This document shows positions 2,409 to 55,949 of a DNA stretch of 64,000 bases, in pieces. Source of the stretch: Octopus vulgaris (taxonomy: Eukaryota); assembly GCA_951406725.2 (NCBI GenBank), contig OX597814.1, positions 171,988,001 through 172,052,000 on the forward strand, given 5' to 3'. A program made the translations under genes and the position numbers. Position 1 is the stretch's first letter. Each line of letters starts with the position of its first letter. Below the pieces are notes generated by a model. That model was not told the origin of the DNA, did no database searches, and was given only the letters and a program-made list of their open reading frames with translations.

Positions 2409-3342
2409 AATGAAAACGCTTGTATATTCACAAGAGAATAAGCTGATTAAATATATACTGTATCATTACAAGAGACGGAAGCACCAAAATAGCACAGGAA
2501 AGATGAAGGGTTAATTAAAGTATAGATTAATGGTTTCTGTAGCGAAGCAATTAAAAAATAACCCAGGTGATTGTAGATAACCTTTTTTGAGAAAAATAAG
2601 AAAAAATATATGCGATATGTGCCATACATGTCATTCAGCATGAACCAATTAAATACAAAATTAATCTGTTTTACAAACGAAGCTAATTTTAACAAAAATA
2701 ATGTTTGGCTAAAAGAATACGTAGCTACATTAGAAATTCTAAAACCATGTCTGTATGTGCATATTTTTCAGAATGCATGTAGTTTTTATTAGGAATATTT
2801 TGGAAAACTCTTTAGTGTACCGAAAAGTATAATTGCATTAACTGAAACAAGAATAAAAACAATTAATGTCTACAACAAAATTAATTCGTGTATAGTAACG
2901 CCAGTAAATATACAATTATTAATTAGATCAATAAATGAATCTGAAAAGAGAATTCTGCCAGAACGCCTTCAAAAACCTTAATCGCAGTTCGCTCATGGTT
3001 AATTAATTCTCGAATCAGCCCACAAGAGAAACTGGTCGAAACTGGTGGAAATGTTCATTCTAGGCATACTTTTCATATTTACTTTTCATAAAAGTGAGAC
3101 GTGTCATAATTTTTCTCTCCAGCATCACTTTATGCTTTTTTCGAATCTCGGATATTTTCGTTTCTTTATACCCATACAAATTAAACCTGTCTGTCAACTG
3201 CTTTAATAACAATATCGGAATCAAAATATTTGGAAATTGTCCACAACTTTCGACCTTAAATTACGATTAGTACCAAAGAAAAATTCCTTCTTAGTTTTCT
3301 CAAAGAGCCTCCCAAAATCATTGTCAATCATTTCCTACTATA

Positions 3343-25087: not shown

Positions 25088-26104
25088 ATGCTATTGGTCA
25101 AATGTCATACCCGGCCACGCAGTGGATTAAGTCTAGAGTATCCATTGACAACAGCACCTGATGAACCAAGTCAAGTCTCACCTTCGCTACAGCAACAAAA
25201 ACAACAACAACAACACTCTAATACTACCACTAGTCAAGTTCCAATGCTGCTACAACTCCCCACTACTGCCACAATAGGAAAACCACTACTACATCCGCGT
25301 AAAACCATCTGCCACTACTACTCTCAAGGCAGCTGCAGATTTGACCACATACTGGCAAGCCAGAACCCACCATCACAAAATCAACAAGCTGCTTCTAACA
25401 CCACCACCACCACCACCACTACTACTACTGCCAAAATAGAAAAACCACTACTACAACCAAATAAAACCCCCTGCCGTTACTATTCTAAAGGCACTTGTAG
25501 ATTTGGCCCCAGCGGCACAAACAAAAATGGACGCTGTGCTTTTCCCCACCCGACCTTATGTCGTAGACTTGCTATGGGCACCTGTCCATACGGTATAACA
25601 GGAAAAAATTGCCCCCACCTCCACCCCAAATACTGTCCTAAATACAGAATCTATGGTTCTGACCCTAAATACGGATGCATAAGAGGCAATAGATGCACCT
25701 TATTCCATCCTAAACTGTGCCAAACTTCTGTCTCACAAAGGATGTGCCTGAACCCAGAATGCAACAACCACCATCTGAAGGGCACAAAACGATCACAGAA
25801 TAGATATGAACAGGAACAGAGGAAATCTAGGACAACAACAAGAACAAAATACAACCACGTTTCCCCTCCTACAATCAAACTACGTAGACAGAACCAGGAA
25901 AAAACACCAAATAACGCCAACTTGAAATATGTATCCTCTGACCAAGTGGCAAACCAAACAAGTAACTCTTTTTTACTGACATACCTGGAAAATATGAAGG
26001 CCGACCTAAGCCAGGAGATCCAGCGAGCCATCACCAACCATCTATGCAAATCACAAGGACCACTCACCCATTACCAACTTCCCTTACCTCGACATTCCTG
26101 TTAA
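25088..26104 (+). CDS. LINE ORF1 protein with tandem CCCH zinc fingers (putative RNA-binding), 338 aa
   Basis: Four CCCH motifs (C-x7-C-x12-C-x3-H, C-x7-C-x8-C-x3-H, C-x13-C-x5-C-x3-H, C-x8-C-x4-C-x3-H) at 25472-25774, joined by HPxxC linkers. Q/T-rich N-terminus and a C-terminal amphipathic helix. The start codon is uncertain. Confidence 0.85.
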   Translation: MLLVKCHTRPRSGLSLEYPLTTAPDEPSQVSPSLQQQKQQQQHSNTTTSQVPMLLQLPTTATIGKPLLHPRKTICHYYSQGSCRFDHILASQNPPSQNQQAASNTTTTTTTTTTAKIEKPLLQPNKTPCRYYSKGTCRFGPSGTNKNGRCAFPHPTLCRRLAMGTCPYGITGKNCPHLHPKYCPKYRIYGSDPKYGCIRGNRCTLFHPKLCQTSVSQRMCLNPECNNHHLKGTKRSQNRYEQEQRKSRTTTRTKYNHVSPPTIKLRRQNQEKTPNNANLKYVSSDQVANQTSNSFLLTYLENMKADLSQEIQRAITNHLCKSQGPLTHYQLPLPRHSC

Positions 26105-29025
26105 ATGTACGTGGCATCAACCCATCAATTATTGCCCAAAAATGGAAGATCCCATATATAGAGAGTTGGCTTGCCGAAATGGCACATTGCTTCCCTTTCT
26201 TTATCCTTACCGAGACTCACCTGAACAACACCCATATGGACGCAGAGGTGAAAATAAAAGATTTCACCATTGTTCGTGCGGATCGCACAGACCGAAATAA
26301 GGGAGGGACAGCCATCTTTATCCACGACTCCTTTTCACTTGATGCCAAGGACACATTTTCCAATGGCTACTGTGAATCGGTATCAGTATACAACAAAGCC
26401 AAGGACATAACCATTGTTGGTCTTTACAGGCCTCCCCAGGCACCTCTAAAGTACTTTGAAGAGTGCCTTAGCAAAGTCAAGTCCTTCCTTCGGAAGTACC
26501 ACTCCGGAAACATAATAGTGATGGGTGATTTTAACCTCCCTCATGTGAACTGGCCCACAAATACTCCGAAGTTAGGCAAGTGCTCTACATCAGATAGGGC
26601 AGCAGCAGAACTGCTCTTTAATCTGATGGATGAGTATTTCCTGACTCAGCTAGTGCTTGAACCAACGAGACAGAATAAAACGATCTTGGATCTGGTACTG
26701 ACCAATCACTCTAGCTACGTTCACAGCATTTCAGTCGAAAAAACTCTCCTCTCAGACCACGACATGGTACTCTGCAATCTTAATTCCCGACGTATAAAAA
26801 CCAAACCAGCCAATCCCACTCCATGGCACCCATTTGACAACATAAATTTCCACAAAGCGGACTGGGGAACAATCAGAAAGGATCTGTCTTCCATCGACTG
26901 GTCTTTTACTCTCAATTCCCCTCATATTGAGACCGCGTGGCAGCACTTTGAAACCATTGTCACCGACACATGCTCTAAACACGCTCCCAACAAATCTACT
27001 AACACAAACAGAAACCGGCTCCCTAAAAAGAAAAAAACACTCATCAGGCGCATCAAAAGACTCAACAAAAAAATCAACCAATTAAAATATTCCCACACGC
27101 AACATCCACATTCAACAACAATGAAAAGACTAGAGCTGGAAAAACTTCATCTGCAGACTAACATGAAAACCTCCATTGAAAATCAAAGAGCTGTGGAGGA
27201 ACAATGGGTAATCAAAAACATCAAACAGAACCCAAAAGTGTTCTATTCTTATGCAAATAAGCATAGAACCACTGTCTCACCTATTGGGCCATTGATTGAT
27301 GAAAACGGCATTCCCCAACACGATGCTAAAGAAATGGCAGAAATACTGCAGAAACAATATTGCTCTGTCTTCAGTGTTCCCACTGATATTGATGTGAGGG
27401 AAACGAACGAAGCTGACTCCCAACACAAAATCGCAGACATAACCTTCACTGCCACCGACATCATAGCAGCAATAAATGAGGTCAAACATTACTCCGCTGT
27501 AGGCCCTGATAGATTTCCCGCCAGTCTCCTGAAGGAATGTAGATATCAACTTGCAGTCCCTCTGACCAACCTCTGGAGAAACTCATTAGACGCAGGTTAT
27601 ATACCGAATAAGTTTCTATCCCAGTCGGTCATCCCGGTTTTCAAACAGGGAAACAGATCCCTCGCAGTCAACTATCGCCCAATCTCACTCACCTCCCACA
27701 TCATCAAAGTGTTTGAAAGAGTGTTAAGATCAAGGATAGCTGACTTCCTGGAGACCCACAAACTCCTAAATTCAAATCAACATGGCTTTCGCTGTGGCAG
27801 GGACTGTCTAACACAGCTCTTACACCACATTGAAGATGTACTCAAAGCCTTGGGAACAGGTTCGAACTCTGACGTCATATACCTTGACTTCAGTAAAGCG
27901 TTCGACAGGGTAGACCATAACATCCTACTCTCAAAATTGGCAAATGTTGGAATCCGTGGAAAAGTTCTACACTGGATTCAGTATTTCCTAGCGAATAGAA
28001 CACAACATGTTGTAGTTGATGGAGTCCACTCAAACCCAGCAAAAGTCACCAGCGGTGTTCCCCAGGGAACTGTTTTGGGTCCGCTACTCTTCATAATTTA
28101 TGTAAACGACCTTTCCAGTGTCGTACATCACTGCAAAGTGAAAATATTCGCTGATGACACTAAGCTCCAGCAAATCGTCAATGAAGAAGCAGACCGAACT
28201 CAACTCCAGTCTGACCTATATGCTGTGAGTCAATGGGCAGACAGAAACAAAATGCAACTGAATGAGGGAAAATTTGAGCTGATGCATTTTGGAAGAAATT
28301 CCTCACTAAAACAACCATACTCTCTTCCTTCAGGGGAACCGCTCACAGCCTCTAACAATATCAGAGACCTGGGTGTAATTGTTGATGACGATCTCAGTTG
28401 GAGTGCACACATCAACAAGAAGGTCGATACAGCTCGTAGGATGAGTTCCTGGATCTTAAGAACTTTCCGGTCCAGAGAACAAGGTGTCATCATACCACTT
28501 TTTTCATCCTTTGTACGGCCACACCTTGAATACTGCTGCCCACTGTGGTCTCCTCACACAAGACAAAACATCTCCAGAATTGAGTCACCCCAGAGGGCTC
28601 TCACTAAACAAATTGAAGGCATGGCTGCTCTCGACTATTGGGATCGCCTTAAAGCCTTGAAACTTTACTCCCTCCAGCGTCGCCGTGAGCGGTACATCAT
28701 TTGTACGATGTGGAAAATATACCGCCAACTTTGCCCAAACGACCTAAACATTAGCTTCAAGGTTCATCCGAGACTTGGACCACGGGCTATACGTCCGCTG
28801 CCAAATTCAAGATCACAACATACATGTACACTGCAACATAATTTCTTTTCCTCAACAGGCCCTGCCCTATTTAACATTGTCCCGAGGGAGATCAAAGAGG
28901 AAAAGGATCCCATCAACTTCAAACAGAGTCTGGATGGATTCCTTCAAAGAATACCAGACAAGCCACCCATAATTGGATACAACTCACCCAACAAGAACTC
29001 ACTACTTGAACAAAACTTGACTTAA
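26044..29025 (+). CDS. LINE ORF2: apurinic/apyrimidinic-like endonuclease + reverse transcriptase, 993 aa
   Basis: APE motifs LLNVRG, LTETHL, YRPP, GDFN, LDLVLT, SDH. RT motifs YRPISLTS, QHGF, YLDFSKAFD, GVPQGTVLGPLLF, FADD (28147-28158), DLGVIVD. CR1-type C-terminus RPHLEYCCPLWSP, LYSLQRRRER. No stops. Confidence 0.97.
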   Translation: MQITRTTHPLPTSLTSTFLLNVRGINPSIIAQKWKIPYIESWLAEMAHCFPFFILTETHLNNTHMDAEVKIKDFTIVRADRTDRNKGGTAIFIHDSFSLDAKDTFSNGYCESVSVYNKAKDITIVGLYRPPQAPLKYFEECLSKVKSFLRKYHSGNIIVMGDFNLPHVNWPTNTPKLGKCSTSDRAAAELLFNLMDEYFLTQLVLEPTRQNKTILDLVLTNHSSYVHSISVEKTLLSDHDMVLCNLNSRRIKTKPANPTPWHPFDNINFHKADWGTIRKDLSSIDWSFTLNSPHIETAWQHFETIVTDTCSKHAPNKSTNTNRNRLPKKKKTLIRRIKRLNKKINQLKYSHTQHPHSTTMKRLELEKLHLQTNMKTSIENQRAVEEQWVIKNIKQNPKVFYSYANKHRTTVSPIGPLIDENGIPQHDAKEMAEILQKQYCSVFSVPTDIDVRETNEADSQHKIADITFTATDIIAAINEVKHYSAVGPDRFPASLLKECRYQLAVPLTNLWRNSLDAGYIPNKFLSQSVIPVFKQGNRSLAVNYRPISLTSHIIKVFERVLRSRIADFLETHKLLNSNQHGFRCGRDCLTQLLHHIEDVLKALGTGSNSDVIYLDFSKAFDRVDHNILLSKLANVGIRGKVLHWIQYFLANRTQHVVVDGVHSNPAKVTSGVPQGTVLGPLLFIIYVNDLSSVVHHCKVKIFADDTKLQQIVNEEADRTQLQSDLYAVSQWADRNKMQLNEGKFELMHFGRNSSLKQPYSLPSGEPLTASNNIRDLGVIVDDDLSWSAHINKKVDTARRMSSWILRTFRSREQGVIIPLFSSFVRPHLEYCCPLWSPHTRQNISRIESPQRALTKQIEGMAALDYWDRLKALKLYSLQRRRERYIICTMWKIYRQLCPNDLNISFKVHPRLGPRAIRPLPNSRSQHTCTLQHNFFSSTGPALFNIVPREIKEEKDPINFKQSLDGFLQRIPDKPPIIGYNSPNKNSLLEQNLT

Positions 29026-53510: not shown

Positions 53511-55341
53511 TACAACCATTTACTGCTGGAGAATAGGACATATAAATATTATTATAAGGTGTAAGGGGAATAATAAATTCGCAATGCACAAAGTAGCTCT
53601 TAAAATGTCCTAAAATCTTACGGGGAATTTACAACCTAAATTCTTGAAGGGAAATAATTTCAAAGGATGTATGTAAATCTGACTTTGAGTGAGAAAGTAT
53701 TTTACTCAAATCGATCAATTTAACAAATCACGATTAACTACAAGTTTGCCATTAGTGCCACATTATACACTAAATGATGAAAGAAGACAATATCTCAGTA
53801 AATAGAGTGCATTTTCAAGATTTTAAATTATTTCGGTTTGAGAGTTAGAATAAACAAAAAGATTTAAACTATGAGGTAGCATACTTGAAAACAGTCACGA
53901 AGGAATATTGTATTAACATCAGCAATATAAATATCAACTATCAACACTGAAAATGCTATTAACGCTTTGAGAAAGCCACATAATTAGAGATTTAGCAGTT
54001 GGATGTCAGTCGTTGATTTTCAACAGAAAGGCACTCATTGTAAATTTAAAAGAAATATAGAAAGCCAAATCAACATATCAACTTTGGCATAGCTCGGCAA
54101 ATAAAATGTAAAATGAAAACACTCGCTTTCTACATAACTAAAGATATATTTCTAGTTTAACTATCTATAACACATTAAAAGTCAGCTTGAATCTTGCTTG
54201 CTTTCTTGCAATGTTACCCAGCCAAACTGGTGCATAATGGAAAATACTATGAATTAAGTTGCCCTGGAATGTTAATACGAACGGAATAAAACAAGTCTCG
54301 CGTAAATCAGACAAGTGGTTTTTCAGCTATTAGGGGTTTTTGGGGTATAAGTATCCAAAATGGTGCATAATGGGAAAATATTCCGAAAATAACTTAATCT
54401 TGAAAGGAAACTCTTGCCTTTTGATTAGACACAGTGACATGACAACGAAAAAATACGATTTGTTTCTTACCGTAAATGTTTCTATTTTCGCTTTTAATCA
54501 TTTAGAAATATTTTTAAGTGAATGTGATTTCAAAAATGTAAGTTGTTTGTACAGTAAGTATTTATATTTTAACTTCTCTGTTATTTGTATATATTTCGTA
54601 AAAGACCTGTTCGTAACCTCGGTATGAAATAACTTCTTTCCATACGTTTCTTTTCGAGTGCACTCAACGTATCTCTCCTTTAAAGATTTGGCTGCTATTT
54701 CTAGCACTCCCTGCTACCACGTAACAGCTATTTGCGATAACGAACCCGAAATATCTGTTACGTGGTACCATTTCCGAGGAAAGGAGCCGTTTACGCGTGA
54801 TTTCGATGTCATTCGTTGATAGTATGCGAAATAACCTGGAAAAGAAAAAAACAAAAGCTCACGAAACTCCGTTGCTGGGGAAACTCAGGCTTTCCCGGTG
54901 ACCCAACAGGTCACGGGTAGTCTAGAGTGTATAGAGAACTATTACTAGCTTAACTAAATATTTAGAAACTTTATACCAAGTGTATTTTCGCGAAATTCCT
55001 TCAAGAATTCATTCAAAGTCCTACGAGGTATTGACTGATGAACAAGTAAATTCAAAGCAGGGATTGAAAGGATGTTATAACCTTTCAATTGATAAACCCG
55101 TGAAAAAACAAATCCAAAATAACAACGCACTTAAATATATAACGTTATGACTTGATTCAATTCAGCACTTATCGTCGCTGGAATCACTGCATCTAGTAAA
55201 GGTACTTGTTTAGTTACAGTCATTAATAATCTTACAATGAACTGATCACCGACTTCTAACTGAAAGCACAAAATATATCTCTGAAACTATATATTTAAAA
55301 AGAAAATGGTGCATTTCTAGCTTATGCTTGTTTTCGAACTA

Positions 55342-55680
55342 CCGTATTTAATCGGGTTGGAAAACAACTCGGGTTCGGCTACGGAACCGGCTTAGAGGCG
55401 TTCAGCCGTTATCGCTCAAAGGCAGCCTGGCACCACCGCTCTATCGAGCGAGCGCGCAAACCGTTGCTCTGATCCCGCGGTTCCTCTCGTACTGGACGGG
55501 ATAGCCGTAGCCGAGTTGACGTTGCAGGCGCCCGCCTAAGGTCGGCGGATTTGATTTTAACTGAAAAAACTTGGGTGCGACTTACACAGAGAGTAAAGCT
55601 AAAACTACGTGGGGGAAAGATATTTGTACTAAGATTTAACATTAAATTACAGGTCAAGACTTATACACGAGTAAGTACGG
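55342..55680. mobile_element. Tc1/mariner-pogo-like MITE with TA target duplication
   Basis: TA|CCGTATTTAATCGGGT ... ACACGAGTAAGTACGG|TA: 16-bp imperfect TIRs (13/16). Internal GACTTA(C/T)ACA repeat at ~55579 and ~55658. Confidence 0.65.
55366..55517 (-). pseudogene. 28S rRNA domain VI fragment (H94-H97 region including the sarcin-ricin loop)
   Basis: Minus strand contains AGTACGAGAGGAAC (55480-55493, eukaryotic SRL) and CTGAACGCCTCTAAG (55391-55405) at the spacing expected in LSU rRNA. The enclosing helices pair. Confidence 0.85.
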
Positions 55681-55949
55681 TAAATTCATTGTTATTATTT
55701 TTACAAAACTTTTATGGCAAAAAAGATCTACAGTGGGAATATCTGCAGAAGAAAGAAGTGCAAATGAGGAAAGAAGAAAATTTTGGTGAAACAAGTCCAT
55801 AACATAAGAATCTACTTTCCAACAAAATGCATTCCCATCAATAGTCTTTCCATTTATTTATTCTGTTGCTGTAGCTGTTTTCCTCACAATAAGCAAAACA
55901 ATATCCTATAACACACTTTCATTGCTAGGACAGCGTCGATAATTGGCAT

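What the first reader, a model, noticed from the sequence alone, without database searches (positions are those of the whole stretch)
55340..55682. 28S rRNA sarcin-ricin-loop domain embedded in a TA-flanked MITE
Seen: ~150 nt on the minus strand carry the invariant SRL AGUACGAGAGGAAC and CUGAACGCCUCUAAG. The surrounding helices pair: AUCCCGU/GCGGGAU (H95), CGCUC-GAUA-GAGCG, CGGC/GCCG, and closing AACUCGG/CCGAGUU with GGCUACGG/CCGUAGCC. The helix sequences differ from the vertebrate and yeast versions as I recall them. The fragment ends roughly at the closing helix, so it is a self-contained fold, and it sits just inside the left TIR of a pogo/Tc1-like MITE. Known: the SRL binds translational GTPases and is the target of ribosome-inactivating proteins; 28S-derived SINEs exist. 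Inference: either a one-off rDNA capture or a dispersed rRNA-mimic repeat family under structural selection, for example a decoy or factor-binding RNA.
Basis: partly seen in the sequence, partly recalled or inferred. Interest (0 to 1): 0.75.

Follow-up and report, generated by a model that had tools for sequence, protein, structure and literature searches.

The report
One-off 28S scrap inside dead MITE
A 190-base scrap of the animal's own large ribosomal RNA gene, 97% identical to the working gene, sits once in the genome inside an old miniature transposon, likely as a patch left by DNA-break repair; it is ordinary genomic debris rather than a ribosome-mimicking repeat family.

Summary
The sarcin-ricin-loop domain and the TA-flanked MITE are real, but the interesting reading fails. 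The 190-nt piece (55357-55546, minus strand) differs at 6 positions from this genome's own tandem 18S-5.8S-28S array. None of the 6 differences is compensatory. Both MITE-28S junctions occur once in 2.8 Gb; 0 of 39 other MITE copies hold 28S and 0 of 46 other SRL loci hold the MITE. The SRL (40 hits) is no more dispersed than control rDNA motifs (49, 59). The piece replaced about 20-22 bp of the MITE, including the inner 12 bases of one inverted repeat, with no target duplication or tail. The MITE arm is 14.6% diverged, the insert 3.2%, so the capture likely came long after the MITE landed. Contigs of two related organisms carry it at the same place. Best reading: a one-off templated break-repair patch, decaying neutrally. 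The scan noted other one-off rRNA chimeras in this genome, but no look-alike of this stretch.

The parts
55340..55341 (.). TA target-site duplication of the MITE, left
   Evidence: sequence; TA also at the family ends
55342..55356 (-). outer 15 nt of one terminal inverted repeat; the inner 12 nt are lost at the insertion
   Evidence: 2 differences from the family consensus end
55357..55546 (-). 190-nt fragment of host 28S rDNA, 96.8% identical to the tandem array on G000:C20
55366..55517 (-). closed four-helix domain holding the sarcin-ricin loop (H94-H97; helix numbers recalled), 152 nt
   Evidence: Rfam alignment from model position 3007; fold
55480..55493 (-). sarcin-ricin loop motif, identical to host 28S
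55518..55546 (-). 29 nt of the GC-rich 28S segment upstream of the domain; holds 2 of the 6 differences
55547..55549 (-). junction bases that match the upstream bases of older 28S copies, so likely part of the insert; at most 1 nt microhomology with the MITE (inferred)
   Evidence: L026, L081, L083
55550..55680 (-). body and intact inverted repeat of an old non-coding MITE of about 165-170 bp; 19 of 130 sites differ from the family consensus
55681..55682 (.). TA target-site duplication of the MITE, right
   Evidence: sequence

Best explanation
This is a single-copy 190-nt piece of the host's own 28S gene that replaced about 20-22 bp of an old, already diverged MITE, likely as a templated patch at a DNA double-strand break, and it is likely decaying without function. 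Shown: host origin, single copy, deletion at the site, no target duplication or tail, presence at the same place in related organisms. Inferred: (1) the MITE inserted first and aged; (2) a germ-line break near one end was trimmed and joined to a 28S fragment by end joining; (3) loss of the inner half of one inverted repeat likely left the chimera unable to jump, so it never multiplied; (4) it has since gathered 4 private mutation events at about the rate of its flanks. Whether the template was rRNA-derived cDNA or rDNA cannot be told from this copy; I put it near even.
For: Host origin: 184 of 190 bases match the C20 array, whose units hold 18S, 5.8S and 28S. Single copy: each junction pattern matches once in 2.8 Gb at up to 3 mismatches. 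0 of 29 and 0 of 10 other MITE copies hold rDNA, and 0 of 46 other SRL loci hold the MITE. No enrichment: 23-mers at up to 2 mismatches give 40 hits for the SRL, 49 for an 18S motif and 59 for another 28S motif. No shared ends: 0 of 29 other dispersed fragments share both ends within 5 nt; their lengths run from 38 to 1690 nt. Order of events: 19 of 130 differences in the MITE arm against 6 of 190 in the insert, Fisher p 2e-4 (0.008 without CpG-type sites). No structural selection: on the host MFE structure 3 changes break a pair, 1 turns G-C into G-U, 2 are unpaired, 0 are compensatory; 77% of 400 random 6-change variants fold at least as stably. Orthologues: contigs of organisms B and C cross the junction at 55546 with 50-51 nt inside the insert.
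Against: The insert has 0 CpG transitions among 4 private events, while 49% of changes in 37 other copies are such (p about 0.07). Inside the 152-nt domain only one change breaks a predicted pair, and a peripheral one. Four of 29 other fragments have both ends within 30 nt of this one's, and 11 of 29 end within 70 nt after the closing helix; they were chosen by a query covering this domain, so this is biased. With 4 events the tests of selection have little power. The MITE consensus comes from the 29 best hits and may hide subfamilies. The genome DNA search scores only the best candidates (40 of 77, 40 of 205). The break-repair mechanism is inferred from junction anatomy only.
Confidence: 0.9

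Rival explanations
1. The insert is a cDNA of a discrete, nuclease-protected piece of the 28S rRNA, cut in the exposed variable segments on either side of the SRL domain; its ends would record a preferred cleavage site about 10-70 nt after the closing helix. It is still a one-off and non-functional. This is a sub-case of the best explanation.
For: 11 of 29 other dispersed fragments end at reference positions 1660-1730 (window copy 1669), and 5 of 29 end at 1955-1978 around the Rfam 3' end of 28S (1962), one of them a 100% identical copy. Octopus 28S is reported to have a post-transcriptional break elsewhere, in H88 (PMC13321053).
Against: Fragments were selected by a query ending at 1666, which piles ends just beyond it; old copies lose alignment in variable segments; 5 of 29 run into the spacer and so come from DNA or precursor RNA. 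One RNA-type contig runs 315 nt past the site. The H88 break motif lies about 320 nt upstream of the insert's start, so it does not explain it.
Confidence: 0.15
2. A MITE subfamily carries the SRL domain as cargo and spread it as an rRNA-mimic repeat under structural selection.
For: The domain is complete and folds; both TA ends survive.
Against: Junctions single-copy; 0 of 39 other MITE copies with rDNA; SRL not enriched over control motifs; no compensatory change; one inverted repeat is cut.
Confidence: 0.01
3. The single copy was exapted: it is transcribed from the locus and acts as an SRL decoy or elongation-factor-binding RNA.
For: SRL motif intact, 23 of 24 CpGs kept, present in organisms B and C and probably D.
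Against: An intact 14-nt motif is expected by chance with p 0.64 at this divergence; 4 changes of 190 on this lineage is not below half the flank divergence, 1.4% (lineage assignment inferred from contig ends); the related organisms differ by only about 2.8% in the flanks, so sharing needs no selection.
Confidence: 0.02
4. The insert is a LINE-made retrocopy or SINE28-like element that landed in the MITE by target-primed reverse transcription.
For: SINE28 copies have a similar size (mean 194 bp) and one is shown inside a human DNA transposon (PMC4994717); the window holds a LINE reading frame with endonuclease and RT.
Against: No A-rich tail, no target duplication (longest flank repeat 2 nt), a deletion instead, and the piece stops about 290 nt short of the 28S 3' end.
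Confidence: 0.05
5. Assembly chimera.
For: rDNA is very abundant in reads.
Against: Contigs from a separate study of organism A cross both junctions, and contigs of B and C cross one by the tool's 31-letter rule and the other by 28 letters.
Confidence: 0.005

Closest known systems
Class 2 templated sequence insertions (break-repair patches; Onozawa and Aplan 2016, PMC5110952, passages read)
   Same: Short piece copied from a distant locus; no target duplication, no poly(A); small deletion and minimal microhomology at the junctions.
   Different: Described in humans, and that paper's main text does not mention rRNA donors (0 occurrences). rDNA as a donor at induced breaks is reported in yeast (PMC11372161, passages read). 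Here the break was not observed.
Dispersed, decaying rDNA fragments and pseudogenes (Robicheau et al. 2017, PMC5381670, abstract read; 109 LSU fragments in the human genome, PMC4994717 section 9 part 1)
   Same: Scattered rDNA pieces of all sizes outside the arrays; this genome has at least 30 non-array fragments over the SRL alone.
   Different: Only the landing place, inside a MITE end, is peculiar.
SINE28 (Longo et al. 2015, PMC4994717, abstract and section 9 part 1 read)
   Same: 28S 3'-region sequence of about 190 nt, low copy, sometimes inside another transposon.
   Different: SINE28 has an A-rich tail and target duplications; this has neither, and transcription was not shown.
Transposons carrying rDNA modules: Pokey/mPok (spacer repeats), Cassandra, 5S SINEs (review PMC10946416, passages and section 11 read)
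   Same: rDNA-derived sequence inside a non-autonomous DNA element.
   Different: Those are amplified families that carry the module; here one dead copy gained it after transposition and never spread. That review's Table 2 lists no MITE with a 28S coding piece.

Membership tests
Dispersed 28S rDNA pseudogene fragment | High identity to the host's own 28S gene | tested here: met
   96.8% to the C20 array
Dispersed 28S rDNA pseudogene fragment | Outside an rDNA unit, partial, with non-compensatory changes | tested here: met
Class 2 templated insertion (break-repair patch) | No target duplication and no poly(A) | tested here: met
Class 2 templated insertion (break-repair patch) | Microdeletion or microhomology at the junctions | tested here: met
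   about 20-22 bp missing against the MITE consensus; 0-1 nt microhomology; judged against the family consensus, not an empty orthologous site
Class 2 templated insertion (break-repair patch) | Arises at a double-strand break, from an RNA template | not testable with these tools
   ancient event; the piece lies wholly within mature 28S, so RNA and DNA templates look alike
SINE28 / LINE-made rRNA retrocopy | A-rich or simple-repeat 3' tail | tested here: not met
   28S sequence joins the inverted repeat directly
SINE28 / LINE-made rRNA retrocopy | Target-site duplication of 5-28 bp | tested here: not met
   longest flank repeat 2 nt; deletion instead
SINE28 / LINE-made rRNA retrocopy | Own polymerase III transcript | tested here: inconclusive
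   only contigs of 3 runs guessed as RNA were laid; they cannot show absence
rDNA-carrying MITE family (mPok-like) | Several copies sharing the cargo and its junctions | tested here: not met
rDNA-carrying MITE family (mPok-like) | Two intact inverted repeats around the cargo | tested here: not met
   inner 12 nt of one repeat lost
pogo/Tc1-mariner-type MITE (host element) | TA duplication, short inverted repeats, non-coding, multi-copy | tested here: met
   TA and repeats of up to 40 bp are typical of pogo (PMC7386202, passages)
pogo/Tc1-mariner-type MITE (host element) | Autonomous partner with matching ends and a DDE transposase | tested here: inconclusive
   0 of 30 best DDE_1 loci (of 152 matches) show the repeat within 1.5 kb of the domain; flanks may be too short

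The most novel reading that the evidence does not exclude
The captured sarcin-ricin domain was kept as a locus-specific RNA decoy for elongation factors or ribosome-inactivating enzymes: its loop and core helices are intact, 23 of 24 CpGs survive and related organisms keep it. Nothing here shows transcription or selection, and the divergence fits neutral decay.
Probability: 0.02. Interest if true: 0.7.

Novelty: new member of a known kind. Interest (0 to 1): 0.08.

Why it matters
It matters little. It is a clean dated example of rRNA sequence used as filler in an animal germ line, and a shared insertion usable as a phylogenetic marker among close relatives. It also warns that covariation judged against remembered vertebrate or yeast rRNA vanishes once the host's own divergent 28S is used. 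Searches for an SRL decoy in a transposon and for 28S captured in a MITE listed no such report among the top 10 titles each, but a single dead copy would not be expected in print.

Tried and rejected
Whole-window Rfam gathering scan: 0 hits; the local scan found the piece. RNA test: contigs of 3 runs of organism A guessed as RNA (X21, X23, X24) cover only the 28S part, have no depth on the MITE arms, run on into 28S at the ends and show the host letter at 55419. Contigs drop rare variants, so this is not counted as evidence of silence. Organism D contigs reach only 18 and 26 letters into the insert, under the 31-letter rule, so D is suggestive only. No contig joint skips the insert, so no empty site was seen. 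The octopus H88 rRNA break as cause of the insert's start: rejected, about 320 nt away. Autonomous transposon: none in 10 best inverted-repeat loci or 30 DDE_1 loci. Host gene nearby: 130 of 254 complex reading frames of the window were scanned in Pfam; only a LINE frame at 25966-29022 hit, so whether the locus is intronic is unknown. The divergence figures included flanks by an indexing slip and were redone. Look-up of earlier findings by sequence: nothing. No supplementary files were read; SILVA and RepeatMasker libraries were not available.

Full report
Observation. On the minus strand, 55480-55493 is the sarcin-ricin loop motif and 55391-55405 the second quoted motif. Rfam's eukaryotic LSU model matches with 99 bits, E 5.5e-24, from model position 3007. 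The 166-nt fold gives the quoted helices, z -2.24. TA-flanked inverted repeats lie at 55340-55357 and 55665-55682. Helix numbers H94-H97 are recalled, not from a call.

Source of the piece. A genome search with the domain scored 40 of 77 candidates, many 97-98% identical, seven in a tandem array with 18-19 kb spacing on G000:C20. A unit of that array holds 18S, 5.8S and 28S. The window shares exactly 190 nt with it (55357-55546), 184 identical. The unusual helices are therefore the host's normal rRNA. The host 28S carries the motif that PMC13321053 (section 0 part 1 and passages read) reports as specific to incirrate octopuses, so the animal is likely such an octopus (inference).

The six differences. 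One (55528) is shared with 11 older dispersed copies and is likely an older state of the 28S gene. The double change at 55385-55386 equals an inversion of a two-base loop between short inverted arms (seen in the sequence), so the five private changes are likely four events. On the host MFE structure three of the six break a pair, one turns G-C into G-U, two are unpaired and none is compensatory. The window copy folds at -74.3 against -82.9 kcal/mol for the host, and 77% of 400 random six-change variants are at least as stable. Against my reading: no private change is a CpG transition, whereas 138 of 283 changes in 37 other copies are (p about 0.07 for four events). An unmethylated site would explain this; it is weak either way.

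Copy number. The two junction patterns (27 and 30 letters, up to 3 mismatches) each match once in 2.8 Gb, at this locus. The MITE arm alone finds an old family, 75-84% identical (40 scored of 205 candidates). None of 29 fetched copies or of 10 more found by the inverted repeat holds rDNA. None of 46 other SRL loci holds the MITE. A 23-mer over the SRL has 40 hits, against 49 for an 18S motif and 59 for another 28S motif, so the SRL is not preferentially scattered. From the 47 SRL loci I set aside 17 (7 array units, 10 units that begin at the R2 site). The other 29 besides the window run from 38 to 1690 nt, and none shares both ends within 5 nt. There is no family.

Anatomy of the capture. The family consensus is about 165-170 bp with inverted repeats of about 27 nt. 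In the window about 20-22 bp of it, including the inner 12 bases of one repeat, are replaced by the 28S piece. There is no tail and no duplication (longest flank repeat 2 nt); microhomology is 0-1 nt. Three bases at 55547-55549 match the upstream bases of older 28S copies. The piece starts 29 nt before the closing helix and ends 9 nt after it, so it is close to, but not exactly, the fold. The MITE arm differs from consensus at 19 of 130 sites, like its sisters (median 14.6%), the insert from 28S at 6 of 190 (p 2e-4). The insert is thus likely much younger than the MITE. These features match class 2 templated insertions as described in PMC5110952 (passages), and rDNA is a reported donor at induced breaks in yeast (PMC11372161, passages). 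The break-repair mechanism is an inference from anatomy.

Relatives. Contigs from a second study of organism A cross both junctions. Contigs of organisms B and C cross the junction at 55546 by 50-51 letters and the other by 28 aligned letters; D is suggestive. B differs from the window at about 31 of 1120 flank bases (2.8%; my count from the contig table). Contig ends and letters suggest that B's insert has the 28S letters at 55375, 55385-55386 and 55419 and the window's letters at 55526 and 55528 (inferred). Four changes of 190 on this lineage is not below the 1.4% expected from the flanks. The capture likely happened shortly before these organisms split, and shows no sign of constraint, with low power.

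Rivals. An amplified mimic family is refuted for this assembly. A SINE28-type retrocopy fails on tail and duplication (PMC4994717). Exaptation of the single copy is not strictly excluded but has no positive support; the RNA contigs laid could not test it well. One lead remains: 11 of 29 other fragments end within 70 nt after the closing helix and 5 of 29 at the mature 3' end, which may mean that many fragments are copies of rRNA pieces. The sample was chosen with a query over this domain, so this needs an unbiased count.

Known context. Dispersed rDNA debris is documented in humans (PMC5381670, abstract). The review PMC10946416 (passages and section 11) lists transposons with rDNA modules, all amplified families. 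Earlier notes of this scan describe other one-off rRNA chimeras in this genome (unchecked) and no look-alike of this stretch.

Verdict. Real observation, ordinary cause: a one-off host 28S patch in a dead MITE. Interest 0.08.

Noticed in passing
L081 (G000:C9:1769904-1773073): An 87%-identical dispersed 28S copy whose 5' end falls within about 4 nt of the octopus H88 break motif of PMC13321053 and whose 3' end lies 13 nt past the Rfam end of 28S: possibly a fossil cDNA of the whole break-to-end rRNA fragment, which would help date the break. One of 29 fragments, so chance is not excluded.
   Followed up: partly
L013 (G000:C5:7245797-7248962): A 632-nt 28S copy, 100% identical, ending at the mature 3' end of 28S, with short inverted and repeated copies of its own start just upstream: likely a recent RNA-templated insertion.
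   Followed up: partly
L002, L011, L012, L014, L016-L020, L024 (contigs C1, C2, C5, C11, C14, C18, C27, C29, C33): Ten 28S copies outside the main array begin exactly at the R2 insertion site, behind several different 3' ends of likely R2 elements. Seven have upstream rDNA within 10 kb, so they are displaced whole or partial units; L012 has a 1311-aa frame upstream.
   Followed up: partly
L005 and 11 other units, about 630 nt behind the end of 28S: All 12 rDNA units checked carry in the spacer a degenerate copy of the 28S sequence just upstream of the R2 site; L019 and L024 switch to other sequence right at that copy, as if something had inserted there. A possible second target or decoy site for R2.
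   Followed up: partly
G000:C29:25.64-25.70 Mb: Eleven hits of the 23-mer upstream of the R2 site at 1.5-9 kb spacing, with no SRL or 18S motif hits in that stretch: perhaps a tandem array of R2-like elements with short 28S leaders.
   Followed up: no
29 dispersed SRL-bearing fragments: 3' ends pile up 0-70 nt after the closing helix of the SRL domain (11 of 29), including young copies L015, L021 and L028; query bias not removed.
   Followed up: partly
window 25966-29022 (+): Open 1019-aa LINE frame with endonuclease and reverse transcriptase domains.
   Followed up: no
window 54810-54925: A very high-copy short repeat (contig depth up to 50,000 against about 55 for single-copy DNA), likely a SINE, 400 bp from the MITE.
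   Followed up: no
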